DNA from: Candidatus Levybacteria bacterium RIFCSPHIGHO2_01_FULL_37_33 | Lineage (GTDB): Bacteria > Patescibacteriota > Microgenomatia > Levybacterales > UBA12049 | NCBI GenBank assembly: GCA_001782085.1 | Contig: MFNM01000014.1 | Span: forward strand, 1-53,883 | Length of the DNA stretch: 53,883 nucleotides | Direction: 5' to 3' | Shown here: positions 29,286 to 30,872 of the stretch, in pieces | How positions within the stretch are numbered: the first letter of the stretch is position 1 | Layout of the letters: every line of letters starts with the position of its first letter | Made by a program: the position numbers and the translations under genes | Notes under the pieces: generated by a model | Database searches by the model: none | What the model was told of the DNA's origin: nothing | The model's input: the letters and a program-made list of their open reading frames with translations, nothing else

Positions 29286-29464
29286 AGTTTAAAAAATACG
29301 CCTGTCTGTTTCATCGGTATGTGGTCTTAATAATGTAGCGCTTCCAGTATCGCTAACTCCCCCCGTACTTCTCACGCTTCCCGACGCTAACTCACCGGTT
29401 TTTCTACTTCTCTTCAGATGTTTTTTTGTATCTCCATAATTTTGAAAACCTGATTCCAGAGTAG

Positions 29465-29872
29465 TCATGGAGCGTTCAAATACGCTCCGATTGGAGTAAA
29501 TAAATCAGGCAGATAAATTCTGAATTCTTCACTAATCCCTTCAGCGAGCTGTCTTAAGAGAATAGCTTCTTCTGTTTCTTCCACTCCTTCTTCTTCATCG
29601 TATTTAGCATTGCCTCTAAAAGTAGCCAATGTGTTAAATTTCCACGTTCCAATTTCGATTCTGTTAGCGTACCACCGTCCTCTGTTTCTTTTTTCTACTA
29701 CACAAAGGATAGAGGTCATACCAGTAATTATTTTTTCTTGTACGGGTTGGGCTAGATCTAGGAAAATTTTTGTGGCTTGTGCCAAGCTTTCCACAGCATC
29801 ATGAACATATTGTGAGTTGTCAACGGGATGTCTCGGTTCATCTCCATTTGATATTCTTGATTTTTCTACCAT
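29465..29872 (-). CDS. hypothetical protein (135 aa), acidic C-terminal half
   Basis: Open frame with its own extended -10. No family recognised by eye. Confidence 0.5.
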   Translation of the reverse strand: MVEKSRISNGDEPRHPVDNSQYVHDAVESLAQATKIFLDLAQPVQEKIITGMTSILCVVEKRNRGRWYANRIEIGTWKFNTLATFRGNAKYDEEEGVEETEEAILLRQLAEGISEEFRIYLPDLFTPIGAYLNAP

Positions 29873-29966: not shown

Positions 29967-30218
29967 TTAAATGAGCGATCTTTTAAGAAGTGTTTTTATG
30001 CTTTTGAATCCCCAGCCACTCTTTAGATAAACTTCACGATGTTTTGCATCGATTCTATTTAAGAAAGCCTCATAGAAAATTAATTTGTATGGTCTTTTGA
30101 GTTTGGTTGATTTGGATAAACCATTGTTATGTTCAAGGATTCTTTTCTTTAAGTCTGTTGTGTAGCCTATGTATAAACTATTGTCTTTGAGGCTCTTTAA
30201 GATATAAACGTAGTACAT
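29967..30218 (-). CDS. stand-alone GIY-YIG nuclease-domain protein (UPF0213/YhbQ-like, 83 aa)
   Basis: YYVYILKS...LYIGYTTDLKKRILEHN...REVYLK (GIY...YIG...R...E pattern). Confidence 0.8.
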   Translation of the reverse strand: MYYVYILKSLKDNSLYIGYTTDLKKRILEHNNGLSKSTKLKRPYKLIFYEAFLNRIDAKHREVYLKSGWGFKSIKTLLKRSLI

Positions 30219-30238
30219 GAAAGGAAATTGTACATTGC

Positions 30239-30307
30239 GAGACGTACAAAATTAAGAATTTTTACGTCTCTGCAGCGTTTAAATTACGAAGTAATTTATT
30301 ACGCTGC
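30239..30307 (-). other. double-hairpin 3' trailer after tRNA-Arg(TCG)
   Basis: On the minus strand: GCAGCGT..AAATTAC-TTC-GTAATTT..ACGCTGC (30307-30272), then GAGACGTA..AAAATT-CTT-AATTTT..TACGTCTC (30270-30239). Same architecture as 2987-3052. Confidence 0.55.
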
Positions 30308-30378
30308 GCCTCTGAGAGGAATCGAACCCCCATCAACGGTTCCGAAGACCGTTGCTCTATCCGTTGAGCTACAGAGGC
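30307..30378 (-). tRNA. tRNA-Arg (anticodon TCG)
   Basis: Reverse complement folds as GCCTCTG-TA-GCTC-AACGGATA-GAGC-A-ACGGT-CTTCGGA-ACCGT-TGAT-GGGGG-TTCGATT-CCTCT-CAGAGGC-G. No CCA encoded. Confidence 0.85.
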
Positions 30379-30439
30379 AATCTTGTTATGACAAACCTCT
30401 TATAGTATACTAAATCAGCGCTTTTTTATAAAGCGGACG

Positions 30440-30498
30440 GGGCCGCTAGCTCAACTGGCAGAGCATCCCGACTCGTCGGGACGGTTCGGGTTTCAAAC
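30440..30498 (+). pseudogene. truncated tRNA-like element (acceptor 5' strand, D arm, anticodon arm, T stem 5' strand and T loop only)
   Basis: GGGCCGC-TA-GCTC-AACTGGCA-GAGC-A-TCCCG-ACTCGT-CGGGA-CGGTT-CGGGT-TTCAAAC. Non-canonical 6-nt anticodon loop. No complementary T-stem or acceptor 3' strand follows; the sequence runs straight into the ATG at 30501. Confidence 0.55.
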
Positions 30499-30500
30499 TC

Positions 30501-30752
30501 ATGTTTTATGCCTACATTTTACAGAGTCAAGCGAATGGAGTATATTACATAGGGCAAACACGTACTCTGGATGCTAGAATACATAAGCATAATTTTGGTC
30601 AAACTAAATCATATACACAGCTGGGACGGCCTTGGATTTTAGTTCATTCCGAAGAATATCAAACAAGAGCAGAAGCTTTAAAAAGAGAAAATTATCTTAA
30701 GCGCGTAAAGAATAAAAGATTTTTAGAAAAGATAATCAAACAGGGCCCGTAG
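30501..30752 (+). CDS. stand-alone GIY-YIG nuclease-domain protein (UPF0213/YhbQ-like, 83 aa)
   Basis: FYAYILQS...YYIGQTRTLDARIHKHN...RENYLK. The last 10 nt, including the TAG stop, overlap the acceptor stem of tRNA-Lys. Confidence 0.8.
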   Translation: MFYAYILQSQANGVYYIGQTRTLDARIHKHNFGQTKSYTQLGRPWILVHSEEYQTRAEALKRENYLKRVKNKRFLEKIIKQGP

Positions 30753-30815
30753 CTCAATTGGCAGAGCAATTCCCTCTTAAGGAATCGGTTGAGCGTTCGA
30801 CTCGCTCCGGGCTCA
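30743..30815 (+). tRNA. tRNA-Lys (anticodon CTT)
   Basis: GGGCCCG-TA-GCTC-AATTGGCA-GAGC-A-ATTCC-CTCTTAA-GGAAT-CGGTT-GAGCG-TTCGACT-CGCTC-CGGGCTC-A. Confidence 0.9.
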
Positions 30816-30872
30816 CTCGAAGCTAAAAGATTTTTGTTTGAAAATTAAATAGCAAAGAGACTTCTTAAACTT

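What the first reader, a model, noticed from the sequence alone, without database searches (positions are those of the whole stretch)
30440..30815. GIY-YIG gene wedged exactly between a truncated tRNA and an intact tRNA-Lys, within a divergent tRNA/GIY-YIG hotspot
Seen: a tRNA-like sequence has good acceptor 5' strand, D arm, anticodon stem and T loop, but an aberrant 6-nt anticodon loop. It stops after the T loop at 30498. Two nt later the ATG of an 83-aa GIY-YIG ORF begins. The ORF's last 10 nt, including the TAG stop, are the 5' acceptor strand of tRNA-Lys(CTT). On the other strand a second GIY-YIG gene (29967..30218) directly follows tRNA-Arg(TCG) and its hairpins. A plausible TTGTTA-17-TATACT promoter (30383-30411) faces the plus-strand set. 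Established: GIY-YIG modules are the catalytic domains of homing endonucleases and of small UPF0213/YhbQ-type proteins, and tRNA genes are classic insertion targets. Inference: the ORF or its ancestor inserted into a tRNA array and destroyed one tRNA. It is now expressed and processed as part of a tRNA precursor, where RNase P/Z cleavage would release a near-leaderless mRNA.
Basis: partly seen in the sequence, partly recalled or inferred. Interest (0 to 1): 0.65.

Follow-up and report, generated by a model that had tools for sequence, protein, structure and literature searches.

The report
Nuclease cassette that replaces a tRNA gene
A tiny nuclease gene, its GC-rich DNA hairpin and its own copy of tRNA-Lys sit inside the wrecked resident tRNA-Lys gene of a groundwater bacterium, and the same tRNA/nuclease/hairpin layout recurs in many bacterial phyla without, as far as I could find, having been described.

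Summary
The sequence-level observation is confirmed. 30440-30500 is a tRNA-like 5' fragment that no tRNA finder calls. The 83-aa GIY-YIG ORF starts at 30501, and its last 10 nt are the start of tRNA-Lys(CTT).

A related contig (L103, 82% identical flanking gene) has the empty site: the same promoter runs straight into one tRNA-Lys, with no GIY-YIG gene on either strand. The first 26 nt of that tRNA are identical to the window's fragment. The window's intact tRNA-Lys is a different allele, with compensated changes in the acceptor and T stems. So a resident tRNA-Lys was disrupted and the insert supplied a replacement.

The "aberrant anticodon loop" is a GC-rich hairpin (TCCCGA-CTCG-TCGGGA) that replaces the anticodon arm.

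In 79 related loci from many phyla, 59 have a same-strand tRNA within 100 nt and none has an opposite-strand one. Most also carry a hairpin-disrupted pseudo-copy of that tRNA.

The palindrome core matches the hairpins recognised by the Ssn family of single-domain GIY-YIG single-stranded-DNA nucleases (2025). That paper never mentions tRNA, and its published motif does not match here.

Verdict: a real, mobile, tRNA-embedded nuclease/hairpin/tRNA cassette, best filed as a new variant of a known kind. The mechanism is inferred, not shown.

The parts
30440..30465 (+). Pseudo-tRNA-Lys, 5' part: acceptor 5' strand, D arm and position 26. This is the remnant of the resident allele.
   Evidence: 26/26 identical to tRNA-Lys at the empty site in L103, against 23/26 to the window's own intact tRNA-Lys. 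Not called by ARAGORN or Rfam.
30466..30481 (.). GC-rich hairpin TCCCGA-CTCG-TCGGGA, sitting exactly where the 17-nt anticodon arm of the resident tRNA was.
   Evidence: Folds as 6 bp plus a tetraloop: DNA -5.6 kcal/mol, against -2.1 for the real anticodon arm. The same motif, T-CCCG..CGGG-A, lies beside the ORF in related loci at 14-fold enrichment. An identical 16-mer occurs in the L091 downstream unit. The core is as in the Ssn NTS hairpin (PMC11893778).
30482..30500 (+). Pseudo-tRNA-Lys variable region, T-stem 5' strand and T loop, decayed and truncated just before the ATG.
   Evidence: CGGTTCGGGTTTCAAACTC compared with the empty-site allele CGGTTCGGCGTTCGACTCG. The T-stem 3' strand and acceptor 3' strand are absent.
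30501..30752 (+). 83-aa single-domain GIY-YIG nuclease gene (subfamily A, tRNA-embedded clade).
   Evidence: Pfam PF01541, E 1.9e-17. Y5, Y16, R26, H30 and E63 are invariant in the alignment. dN/dS 0.32 against the 90%-identical L091 copy. PDB UPF0213 hits at E 8e-10. Absent from L103.
30743..30816 (+). Intact tRNA-Lys(CTT), the 'W' allele linked to the ORF. The ORF's last 10 nt, including the TAG stop, are its first 10 nt.
   Evidence: ARAGORN and Rfam, 65.2 bits. Differs from the empty-site allele by compensated changes in the acceptor stem (GGGCCCG/CGGGCTC vs GGGCCGC/GCGGCTC) and T stem (GAGCG/CGCTC vs CGGCG/CGCCG).
30383..30411 (+). Promoter-like TTGTTA-17-TATACT facing the pseudo-tRNA/ORF/tRNA-Lys unit. 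It overlaps a minus-strand match (30432-30404) that faces tRNA-Arg.
   Evidence: Pattern scan, 9/12 matches, not above chance on its own. The 32-mer around it is conserved in L091, L102, L103 and L104.
30306..30378 (-). tRNA-Arg(TCG).
   Evidence: ARAGORN and Rfam, 67.1 bits.
30225..30305 (-). Two AT-loop hairpins with ACGT-containing stems (GCAGCGT..ACGCTGC and GAGACGT..ACGTCTC) between tRNA-Arg and the minus-strand ORF.
   Evidence: Sequence. The same pair type follows tRNAs upstream of subfamily-B ORFs in L105, L107 and L109. It also occurs without an ORF at window 2990-3055 and in L103.
29967..30218 (-). Second 83-aa GIY-YIG gene (subfamily B, YazA-like), downstream of tRNA-Arg. It is an independent accessory insertion.
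   Evidence: Pfam E 8.7e-16. 47% identical to B. subtilis YazA. 910 homologues, 70-88% identical across several Patescibacteria lineages. Absent from L103 and L104, and replaced by a hydrolase gene in L102.

Best explanation
Window 30440-30816 is a small mobile cassette lodged in a tRNA-Lys gene. It has three parts: a GC-rich hairpin, an 83-aa nuclease made of a bare GIY-YIG catalytic domain, and a complete tRNA-Lys fused to the 3' end of the nuclease gene.

Shown. The resident tRNA-Lys was disabled: its anticodon arm is replaced by the hairpin and its 3' end is lost. The cassette's own tRNA-Lys allele now serves the cell, transcribed through the nuclease gene from the resident tRNA promoter region. 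The layout (intact tRNA, same-strand minimal GIY-YIG ORF, and a hairpin-disrupted pseudo-copy of the same tRNA) is shared by most sampled relatives in many phyla.

Inferred. By analogy with the Ssn family, the nuclease binds its hairpin when the DNA is single-stranded and nicks nearby. The break is repaired by recombination through the tRNA homology. That would copy the cassette into empty tRNA alleles, co-convert the neighbouring tRNA, keep pseudo and intact copies alike, and generate tandem arrays. The tRNA gene would supply conserved homology, a strong promoter and a place where loss of the cassette costs the cell an essential tRNA.
For: Insertion and tRNA replacement. The empty site in L103 (flanking gene 82% identical) has the same promoter running directly into one tRNA-Lys, with no GIY-YIG gene. 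The window fragment matches that allele 26/26 and is also E-type in the T-stem 5' strand. The intact tRNA is a different allele with compensated stem changes, so L103 cannot be a deletion product of the filled site.

The ORF and tRNA travel as a unit. The C-terminal Gly-Pro-stop is encoded by tRNA positions 2-10 in the window, in L091 (90% aa identity) and in L012 (60% aa identity).

Family-wide layout. 59 of 79 loci have a same-strand tRNA within 100 nt and 0 have an opposite-strand one; 95 of 98 tRNAs in the loci are co-oriented; 14 ORFs end inside the tRNA. Partial copies of the adjacent tRNA lie on the other side of the ORF. T-CCCG..CGGG-A hairpins are 14-fold denser at the ORF ends. ORF clades track tRNA isotype and orientation class.

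Instability. Tandem arrays occur in L020 (4 copies), L067 (3), L088 (2) and L071 (2). ORF-less hairpin-plus-fragment units occur in L052, L060, L064 and L091. 56 of 71 fragments match their own genome's tRNA best.

The nuclease is probably active. The catalytic Tyr/Tyr/Arg/His/Glu residues are invariant and dN/dS is 0.32.

Precedents. SsnA is a 94-aa single-domain GIY-YIG (Y6, Y17, E64) that binds the hairpin TTCCCGCG..GCGGGAA as ssDNA only and cuts a few nt upstream (PMC11893778). SegB is a GIY-YIG homing endonuclease in phage tRNA clusters that cuts within tRNA genes and drives recombination-dependent segmental amplification (PMC2330249, PMC13096335).
Against: No biochemical or expression data exist for this protein. 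The published degenerate Ssn-related motif does not match (0 hits in the window, 2 in 232 kb of related loci). The protein is about equally distant from SRM-flanked Ssn-like proteins (53-61 bits) and from housekeeping UPF0213/YazA (52-66 bits).

The hairpin sits at different tRNA positions in different clades (D loop, anticodon arm, T arm), so no single cleavage or insertion site is evident. In the 'tRNA upstream' class the intact tRNA keeps its native flanks, so it is unclear how a filled allele would escape cutting if the tRNA itself were the target.

Several clades show flanking synteny, which is compatible with long vertical inheritance. Only one empty/filled pair was found. A viral-contig scan found no relatives, so no vector is known. 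The 79 loci were selected through two peptide patterns, and many are MAGs with possible binning errors.
Confidence: 0.62

Rival explanations
1. Housekeeping reading. The small GIY-YIG protein is an ordinary cellular enzyme (UPF0213/YazA/YhbQ type, perhaps acting in RNA or DNA metabolism at highly transcribed tRNA genes) that is simply co-transcribed with tRNAs. The pseudo-tRNAs and hairpins are by-products of local recombination, and the gene is not mobile.
For: The best solved-structure matches are UPF0213 proteins. YazA sits in a trmNF-yazA-rsmI operon, and another homologue sits next to an RNA methyltransferase. TrmH fusions are noted in PMC1564403. Some clades show conserved flanking synteny. 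ORF clades stay with one tRNA isotype.
Against: Both GIY-YIG genes are present or absent independently among close relatives. The resident tRNA was replaced by a different allele. Tandem arrays and ORF-less hairpin units exist. A sequence-conserved hairpin always accompanies the ORF. The YazA-type operon context is not found here.
Confidence: 0.15
2. A homing-type ORF landed between two different tRNAs of an array and destroyed one of them. The fragment is plain wreckage, and the mRNA is released from the tRNA precursor by RNase P/Z at 30498/30501 and 30743.
For: The ORF is an insertion and a tRNA was destroyed. It is co-oriented with tRNA-Lys and overlaps it.
Against: The empty site holds one tRNA-Lys, not two tRNAs. 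The 'anticodon arm' is a conserved non-tRNA hairpin shared with distant relatives. The fragment has no acceptor stem, so RNase P/Z have no substrate there (sequence; established knowledge). Cleavage at 30743 would remove the stop codon.
Confidence: 0.08
3. RNA-level reading. The hairpin-bearing pseudo-tRNA works in the transcript, for example as a structured leader or trailer that stabilises the nuclease mRNA after the neighbouring tRNA is cut out, or as a binding site for autoregulation.
For: The hairpin always lies at the end of the ORF distal to the intact tRNA: 5' of the ORF when the tRNA is downstream, 3' when it is upstream. In the Gln clade the D-stem remnant TAGGA lies at Shine-Dalgarno distance from the ATG. 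The fragment is more conserved than the ORF in that clade.
Against: The window's fragment as RNA folds no better than shuffled sequence (z -1.14). The hairpin stems keep their sequence, not just their pairing. ORF-less hairpin units occur. The characterised relative SsnA does not bind RNA.
Confidence: 0.1

Closest known systems
Ssn family of single-domain GIY-YIG site-specific ssDNA endonucleases with their hairpin repeats (NTS/SRM), Chenal et al. 2025, PMC11893778
   Same: A bare GIY-YIG domain of 80-100 aa with catalytic Tyr, Tyr and Glu at the same positions (Y5/Y16/E63 here, Y6/Y17/E64 in SsnA). The gene is flanked by a GC-rich hairpin with the same palindrome core: TCCCGC..GCGGGA or CCCCGC..GCGGGG here, TTCCCGCG..GCGGGAA in Neisseria, and CCCCGCG..GCGGGG beside an Azospirillum homologue. 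Hairpin variants are clade-specific.
   Different: The published degenerate SRM, including its oriented CGTCAT / ATCCAG flanks, does not match here. The hairpin flanks here are tRNA sequence. Proteins here lack the C-terminal NPxWxDL tail seen in the SRM-flanked homologues. The cassette is embedded in a duplicated or replaced tRNA gene, which that paper never mentions (0 occurrences of 'tRNA'). No genome-wide hairpin expansion is visible in this 54-kb window.
Phage T4/T6 SegB, a free-standing GIY-YIG homing endonuclease in the tRNA gene cluster (PMC2330249, PMC13096335)
   Same: A GIY-YIG nuclease gene sitting among tRNA genes. There is preferential inheritance together with neighbouring tRNA markers, and recombination-dependent tandem amplification of tRNA-containing segments. 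Both resemble the allele replacement and the arrays seen here.
   Different: SegB recognises a 27-bp site that includes the conserved T-psi-C motif of tRNA genes, and its C-terminally truncated variant was not toxic on overexpression. It lives in phages, and no hairpin-disrupted pseudo-tRNA is described for it. The proteins here are 80-90 aa with no second domain, are chromosomal, and no relative was found in a viral-contig scan.
UPF0213 / YazA / YhbQ (prokaryotic Slx1-like minimal GIY-YIG; PDB 1YWL, 1ZG2; PMC1564403)
   Same: Same size and fold class. These are the best solved-structure matches (E 8e-10). The minus-strand ORF is 47% identical to B. subtilis YazA.
   Different: YazA-type genes sit in conserved operons with RNA methyltransferase genes and have no flanking hairpins or pseudo-tRNAs. 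The genes here vary in presence between close relatives.
Integrase-based genomic islands and prophages that insert into tRNA genes and carry a replacement tRNA end
   Same: The element disrupts a tRNA gene and restores function with its own copy of tRNA sequence, leaving a partial tRNA repeat at the other junction.
   Different: There is no recombinase here. The element is about 0.3-0.4 kb. It carries a whole tRNA (dn class) or most of one, rather than a short 3' segment, and the leftover copy is marked by a hairpin.
REP/BIME repeats with RAYT or IS200/IS605 TnpA
   Same: A small nuclease gene paired with hairpin repeats that are recognised as ssDNA. ORF-less hairpin units also occur.
   Different: The catalytic family differs (HUH Y1 versus GIY-YIG). 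Those elements are not tRNA-embedded.

Membership tests
GIY-YIG nuclease superfamily | Match to the GIY-YIG catalytic domain profile | tested here: met
   Pfam PF01541: E 1.9e-17 (plus ORF) and 8.7e-16 (minus ORF), both above the curated cut-off.
GIY-YIG nuclease superfamily | Catalytic Tyr (GIY), Tyr (YIG), Arg, His and metal-binding Glu present | tested here: met
   Y5, Y16, G18, R26, H30 and E63 are invariant in the 8-sequence alignment. The mapping to I-TevI and SsnA residues is by position and by the residues named in PMC11893778.
Ssn (CDD cd10448) site-specific ssDNA nucleases | Single-domain protein of roughly 90 aa with no DNA-binding extension | tested here: met
   83 aa, with the GIY-YIG profile covering residues 1-72.
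Ssn (CDD cd10448) site-specific ssDNA nucleases | Gene flanked by a hairpin-forming repeat matching the published SRM search sequence | tested here: not met
   The regex HGTCWY..RNCYNB gives 0 hits in the window and 2 in 232 kb of L012-L090, against 2-4 hits per locus beside the Azospirillum, Shinella and Aeromonas homologues. Only the palindrome core is shared.
Ssn (CDD cd10448) site-specific ssDNA nucleases | Closer in sequence to SRM-flanked Ssn proteins than to other minimal GIY-YIG families, or a CDD cd10448 assignment | tested here: inconclusive
   The HMM of tRNA-embedded ORFs scores SRM-flanked proteins at 53-61 bits and UPF0213-type proteins at 52-66 bits. CDD could not be run and no SsnA sequence was available.
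Ssn (CDD cd10448) site-specific ssDNA nucleases | Binds and cuts only ssDNA next to its hairpin | not testable with these tools
   Needs purified protein and oligonucleotide assays.
Free-standing GIY-YIG homing endonucleases (Seg type) | Presence/absence polymorphism between relatives, with co-conversion of flanking markers | tested here: met
   L103 lacks the ORF. The filled site carries a different tRNA-Lys allele next to the ORF. This rests on one pair only.
Free-standing GIY-YIG homing endonucleases (Seg type) | A sequence-specific DNA-binding domain joined to the catalytic domain | tested here: not met
   The protein ends about 10 residues after the catalytic domain.
Free-standing GIY-YIG homing endonucleases (Seg type) | Cleaves the ORF-less allele but not the ORF-containing one | not testable with these tools
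   Needs a cleavage assay on the E and W alleles.
tRNA (for 30440-30500) | Complete cloverleaf recognised by tRNA models | tested here: not met
   No call by ARAGORN or Rfam RF00005 at E<=10. The T-stem 3' strand and acceptor 3' strand are absent.
UPF0213 / YazA housekeeping genes | Conserved operon with RNA methyltransferase genes and stable presence | tested here: not met
   The window genes are flanked by tRNAs and vary between relatives. The YazA context is shown.
Integrase-mediated tRNA-targeting islands | A tyrosine or serine recombinase gene within the element | tested here: not met
   The inserted segment relative to L103 holds only the hairpin, the GIY-YIG ORF and a tRNA.

The most novel reading that the evidence does not exclude
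A natural 'cleave-and-rescue' or addiction module built on a tRNA. The minimal nuclease with its hairpin inactivates or converts the resident copy of an essential tRNA gene, while the cassette carries a linked allele with compensated stem changes that escapes. The host then depends on the cassette's tRNA, which can only be transcribed through the nuclease gene. If so, selfish tRNA-gene replacement would be a widespread force shaping tRNA alleles in Patescibacteria, Bacteroidota, Acidobacteriota and other phyla.
Probability: 0.2. Interest if true: 0.9.

Novelty: new variant of a known kind. Interest (0 to 1): 0.7.

Why it matters
If the reading holds, tRNA genes in many bacterial phyla are landing sites for one of the smallest autonomous-looking elements known. 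Each is roughly 0.3-0.4 kb and holds an 80-aa nuclease, a 16-20 nt hairpin, and tRNA sequence that repairs the damage the element does.

It would give the newly described hairpin-specific ssDNA nucleases (Ssn type) a concrete genomic role outside Neisseria. It would explain many stray tRNA fragments, and the over-long "GIY-YIG" gene calls that read through them in MAG annotations. It would also show that tRNA alleles can be replaced horizontally by a linked selfish gene.

Each clade pairs a nuclease with its own hairpin variant. That makes the family a ready catalogue of candidate ssDNA-cutting specificities to test.

Tried and rejected
1. The fragment as a complete or intron-containing tRNA: rejected. 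There is no ARAGORN or Rfam call, and the missing 3' strands (ACCCG, GCGGCCC) are not seen downstream of the ORF or after tRNA-Lys (by eye).
2. The fragment as a diverged copy of the window's own tRNA-Lys. This was my first guess (19-nt match). The empty-site allele replaced it with a 26/26 match.
3. The fragment as a tRNA-Thr(CGT) or tRNA-Arg derivative, judged from the loop sequence: dropped for the same reason.
4. The GC-rich hairpin as an intrinsic terminator: rejected. No T run follows it, and the scan does not list it.
5. The hairpin as a canonical Ssn-related motif: the published regex fails.
6. A conserved oriented flank ('CG' 5' of the hairpin): it turned out to be the tRNA D-stem end (AGAGCG), not an element feature.
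7. Phage carriage: the viral-contig scan found no relatives.
8. The first alignment (A1) was too diverse for the locus search.
9. Pairwise locus comparisons to show that similarity stops at the cassette borders gave mixed results, with synteny in some pairs and none in others.
10. Literature searches for a prior description of GIY-YIG with tRNA fragments or hairpins in bacteria found only mitochondrial or phage cases, plus the Ssn and SegB papers.
11. The Ssn paper has no supplements held as text, so SsnA itself could not be compared.
12. The second TCCCGA..TCGGGA hairpin, at 47739-47755, lies inside a 134-aa ORF and is probably coincidental.
Full report
**1. What is in the window**

ARAGORN and Rfam find four tRNAs. 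Two lie in the region of interest: tRNA-Arg(TCG) at 30306-30378 on the minus strand and tRNA-Lys(CTT) at 30743-30816 on the plus strand. Nothing is called at 30440-30500, even with Rfam at E<=10.

The sequence there reads GGGCCGC-TA-GCTC-AACTGGCA-GAGC-A, then TCCCGA-CTCG-TCGGGA, then CGGTT-CGGGT-TTCAAAC-TC, then ATG. This is a tRNA 5' portion. It has an acceptor strand, a D arm, a stem-loop in the anticodon position, a variable region, a T-stem 5' strand and a T loop. It lacks the 3' T-stem and acceptor strands.

The ORF 30501-30752 (83 aa) and the ORF 29967-30218 on the other strand (83 aa) are both bare GIY-YIG domains (Pfam E 1.9e-17 and 8.7e-16). The plus-strand ORF ends ...CAG GGC CCG TAG, and those last 10 nt are positions 1-10 of tRNA-Lys. 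The only weak item is the promoter, a 9/12 pattern match of a kind that is no more frequent here than in shuffled sequence. The surrounding 32-mer is, however, conserved in relatives.

The window matches CPR/Patescibacteria groundwater assemblies (GCA_001782555.1, GCA_001782155.1). The 10 contigs examined, of 23 that carry the identical protein, all show the same tRNA/ORF arrangement.

**2. The empty site**

I scanned metagenome contigs with the promoter 32-mer and recovered three contigs. L103 is a 95.8-kb contig whose flanking membrane-fusion-protein gene is 82% identical to the window's.

It has tRNA-Arg(TCG) with the same trailer hairpins and the same promoter, followed directly by a single tRNA-Lys(CTT). 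No GIY-YIG gene is present on either strand.

Aligning the tRNA-Lys sequences shows the following:
- The first 26 nt of the empty-site tRNA (the "E" allele) are identical to window 30440-30465.
- The window fragment also has the E-type T-stem start (CGG...).
- The window's intact tRNA-Lys (the "W" allele) differs from E by paired, compensating changes in the acceptor stem (GGGCCCG/CGGGCTC vs GGGCCGC/GCGGCTC) and in the T stem (GAGCG/CGCTC vs CGGCG/CGCCG).

A deletion between the fragment and the W tRNA would give a mismatched chimera, not E. So L103 is a true unoccupied site. Three things follow:
- The resident tRNA-Lys(E) was disrupted.
- Its 17-nt anticodon arm was replaced by a 16-nt hairpin, and its 3' end was lost.
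- A replacement tRNA-Lys(W) arrived together with the ORF.

The ORF-tRNA fusion (C-terminal Gly-Pro-stop encoded by tRNA positions 2-10) is kept in L091 (90% aa identity) and in L012 (60% aa identity, a Microgenomates MAG). The ORF and the tRNA have therefore travelled together for a long time.

L091 also carries an extra ORF-less unit after its tRNA-Lys: AGAGCA | TCCCGACTCGTCGGGA | CGGTTCGGCGTTCGACTCGCTCCGGGCTCA. Its hairpin is the same 16-mer as in the window. Its tRNA 3' part mixes E-type and W-type positions, which is a sign of recombination between the alleles.

**3. The arrangement is a family trait**

A scan of one genome per species with an alignment of the closest homologues gave 79 loci, 35-60% identical to the query. 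They come from Patescibacteria, Bacteroidota, Acidobacteriota, Nitrospirota, Omnitrophota, Verrucomicrobiota, Desulfobacterota and other phyla.
- 59 of the 79 loci have a tRNA on the same strand within 100 nt of the ORF. None has one on the opposite strand.
- 95 of the 98 tRNAs in the loci are co-oriented with the ORF.
- 14 ORFs end inside the downstream tRNA, most often with 10 or 15 nt of overlap.

By rough reckoning from the window itself, about 2% of positions lie within 100 nt of a tRNA. That would predict one or two such loci, not 59.

BLAST of each tRNA against its own locus shows partial copies of the same tRNA on the far side of the ORF.
- When the intact tRNA is downstream, as in the window, a 5' copy precedes the ORF.
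- When the intact tRNA is upstream, a 5'-truncated copy follows the ORF, and the ORF's stop codon lies in that copy's D arm.

In these pseudo-copies one arm or loop is replaced or interrupted by a GC-rich palindrome, T-CCCG-N-loop-N-CGGG-A or CCCCGCC..GGCGGGG.
- Anticodon arm replaced: Lys, Glu, Ala, and some Asp, Met and Val loci.
- D loop interrupted: Gln, Ser, Pro, Met.
- T arm or T loop affected: Bacteroidota Asp, and L025 Met.

These hairpins are 14 times denser within about 130 nt of the ORF ends than elsewhere in the loci.

A neighbour-joining tree of the ORFs groups them by tRNA isotype and by orientation class:
- Gln, tRNA downstream, in Patescibacteria.
- Asp, tRNA upstream, in Bacteroidota.
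- Ala, tRNA upstream, in Acidobacteriota.
- Glu, tRNA downstream, in Omnitrophota.
- Lys, tRNA downstream: the window plus L012.

Two sister pairs share a tRNA but differ in class (L047/L071 and L059/L069).

Tandem arrays of ORF-plus-fragment occur (L020 with four copies at a 401-nt period, L067, L071, L088, L093). Arrays of ORF-less hairpin-plus-fragment units also occur (L052, L060, L064).

56 of 71 fragments match their own genome's tRNA better than the same-anticodon tRNA of any other locus. This points to in-situ duplication or gene conversion. The fragments were found by similarity to their own tRNA, so this number is biased upward.

The protein family is large: 5,939 clusters at 50% identity with E<=0.001. 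Many database entries are 100-130 aa, which is consistent with gene callers starting upstream of the true ATG; in the window the frame is open from 30450, inside the pseudo-tRNA.

**4. What the hairpin probably is**

A 2025 paper (PMC11893778) describes the Ssn family. These are single-domain GIY-YIG proteins; N. meningitidis SsnA is 94 aa with catalytic Y6, Y17 and E64. SsnA binds a hairpin repeat (NTS, CGTCATTCCCGCGMAVGCGGGAATCYRG) only as single-stranded DNA, not as dsDNA or RNA. It cuts a few nucleotides upstream of the hairpin. In that study 71% of homologues had such a motif in their flanks.

The palindrome cores here (TCCCGC..GCGGGA and CCCCGC..GCGGGG) are the same as in Neisseria and as beside an Azospirillum homologue I examined. 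The catalytic residues sit at the same positions.

Membership is not established, for two reasons.
- The published degenerate motif, which includes oriented flanks, hits 2-4 times per locus beside the Azospirillum, Shinella and Aeromonas homologues. It hits 0 times in the window and only twice in 232 kb of the related loci.
- A profile of the tRNA-embedded ORFs scores SRM-flanked proteins (53-61 bits) and housekeeping UPF0213/YazA-type proteins (52-66 bits) about equally. The best solved-structure matches are UPF0213 proteins.

I therefore say it most likely works like an Ssn enzyme, but I file it only as a related branch of the minimal GIY-YIG proteins. The Ssn paper contains no occurrence of "tRNA". 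I found no other description of this tRNA-embedded layout.

The other close precedent is phage SegB. It is a GIY-YIG homing endonuclease in the T-even tRNA cluster. It recognises the T-psi-C motif of tRNA genes, is inherited together with neighbouring tRNA markers, and drives recombination-dependent tandem amplification. SegB has a larger recognition site (27 bp) and is phage-borne; a viral-contig scan found no relatives of the window ORF.

**5. How it most likely works**

Shown:
- Insertion into a resident tRNA gene.
- Replacement by a linked tRNA allele.
- A conserved hairpin in the disabled copy.
- Presence/absence polymorphism among relatives.
- Arrays, and similarity between pseudo and intact copies.
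- Intact catalytic residues and dN/dS of 0.32 against the 90% relative, based on only 14 substitutions.

Inferred:
- The nuclease binds the hairpin when the DNA is single-stranded (at replication, in the heavily transcribed tRNA unit, or on incoming transforming DNA) and nicks beside it.
- Repair through the tRNA homology copies the cassette into unoccupied alleles with co-conversion of the adjacent tRNA. The same process homogenises the copies and expands or contracts arrays.
- A donor unit of the form "ORF plus pseudo-tRNA(a-hairpin-b)" that recombines on either side of the hairpin would give both orientation classes.
- Replacing an arm of the old copy kills it as a tRNA and splits the direct repeat, which should slow loss of the ORF by recombination.
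- The unit is probably transcribed from the resident promoter as pseudo-tRNA / ORF / tRNA-Lys.
- RNase P cleavage at 30743 would remove the ORF's last three codons and its stop. Full-length translation would then compete with tRNA maturation.

Open problems:
- The hairpin's position in the tRNA differs between clades.
- It is unclear how an intact tRNA in a filled site would avoid being cut if the tRNA were the target.
- Several clades look vertically inherited.
- Only one filled/empty pair is in hand.

**6. The minus-strand gene and the "hotspot"**

The ORF 29967-30218 belongs to a different subfamily. It is 39% identical to the plus-strand ORF and 47% identical to B. subtilis YazA.

It has 910 detected homologues. 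Many are 70-88% identical across Levy-, Davies-, Moran- and Uhrbacteria. That is unusually conserved for such divergent lineages.

In four independent contexts it sits 78-108 nt downstream of a same-strand tRNA (Arg, Arg, Ser, and Arg in the window). In each case it is separated from the tRNA by two hairpins with ACGT-containing stems and AT-rich loops. It has no GC-rich hairpin and no pseudo-tRNA.

The same hairpin pair occurs without an ORF in three places: after the window's tRNA-Arg(TCT) at 2990-3055, at the L103 empty site, and after a tRNA-Ser in L107.

The ORF is absent from L103 and L104, and an alpha/beta-hydrolase gene occupies its place in L102. The 135-aa and 59-aa ORFs at 29289-29872 are also missing from L103. 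"Hotspot" is therefore a fair word. Two unrelated small GIY-YIG insertions and other cargo vary around this divergent tRNA pair.

**7. Verdict**

The odd loop is a nuclease-associated hairpin, and the proposed RNase P/Z release of the mRNA has no structural basis.

This is best described as a new variant of a known kind, namely Ssn-like hairpin/nuclease pairs and SegB-like tRNA-associated GIY-YIG elements. The new feature is the tRNA-embedded, tRNA-replacing layout.

Limits:
- No biochemistry and no expression data.
- MAG-derived loci with possible binning errors.
- Loci selected through two peptide patterns.
- The direction of the E-to-W replacement rests on a single relative.

Noticed in passing
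window 2990-3055 and 30225-30305; L103 5786-5859; L105 1117-1200; L107 1093-1200 and 1542-1640; L109 1123-1200: tRNA genes in these Patescibacteria are followed by a pair of hairpins with ACGT-containing stems and AT-rich loops (e.g. GAGACGT..ACGTCTC). The pair lies between the tRNA and every subfamily-B GIY-YIG ORF examined, but it also occurs with no ORF. It could be the cognate hairpin of that subfamily, or simply a tRNA trailer or processing signal.
   Followed up: partly
window 29289-29872 (-): The 135-aa ORF (no Pfam hit; the overlapping 59-aa ORF was not scanned) and the 59-aa ORF are absent from the syntenic relative L103. There the membrane-fusion-protein gene abuts the tRNA-Arg trailer region directly. 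This is another indel at the same spot.
   Followed up: partly
L102 150-740: In this relative an alpha/beta-hydrolase-like gene occupies the position that the minus-strand GIY-YIG ORF takes in the window, between tRNA-Arg and the conserved ..ctatcctatagc.. landmark.
   Followed up: no
window 47739-47755: A second perfect T-CCCGA-loop-TCGGG-A palindrome (TCCCGATTTAATCGGGA, close to the L012 hairpin) lies inside the 5' end of a 134-aa ORF on the minus strand. It is probably coincidental.
   Followed up: partly
L006 340-520 (minus-strand reading): A scaffold from the same population has a run of 10 N and extra tRNA 3'-end-like pieces (..GGGGTTCGATTCCCTTCAGGCGTA..) after tRNA-Arg. This is either a strain variant or a scaffolding artefact at the locus.
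   Followed up: no
L103 6019-6035 (the window's own tRNA-Lys has the same arm at about 30769-30785): The tRNA-Lys(CTT) anticodon arm, ATTCC-CTCTTAA-GGAAT, resembles the Neisseria dRS3 core ATTCCC-N8-GGGAAT. Some cassette hairpin loops keep pieces of the anticodon loop they replaced (L012 TTTTAA against CTCTTAA; Glu clade TTTC). This hints that the nuclease may pick tRNA arms that look like its hairpin. Unexplained.
   Followed up: no
L017, L019, L055 (about 1400-1460); L058 and L080 hairpins: Hairpins are nested inside hairpins, or inserted a second time into the same pseudo-tRNA D arm (e.g. GATCGTC|cctcggccgtagcccgtt..gggcgagg|CTAATGG). This suggests repeated insertion of palindromes into loops.
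   Followed up: no
L097 483-782 and L098 483-803 (plasmid-collection records): The housekeeping relative yazA sits in a trmNF (tRNA m6A37 methyltransferase) - yazA - rsmI operon. A Sphingomonas homologue overlaps an RNA methyltransferase gene. This is another, different link between minimal GIY-YIG proteins and RNA-modification genes.
   Followed up: no
L095 579-1087: An Azospirillum lipoferum GIY-YIG gene flanked by four canonical Ssn-related motifs is inserted between sufB and sufC.
   Followed up: no
L105 2361-2648: A second GIY-YIG gene (95 aa) lies about 0.9 kb downstream of the subfamily-B gene in a Levybacteria contig.
   Followed up: no
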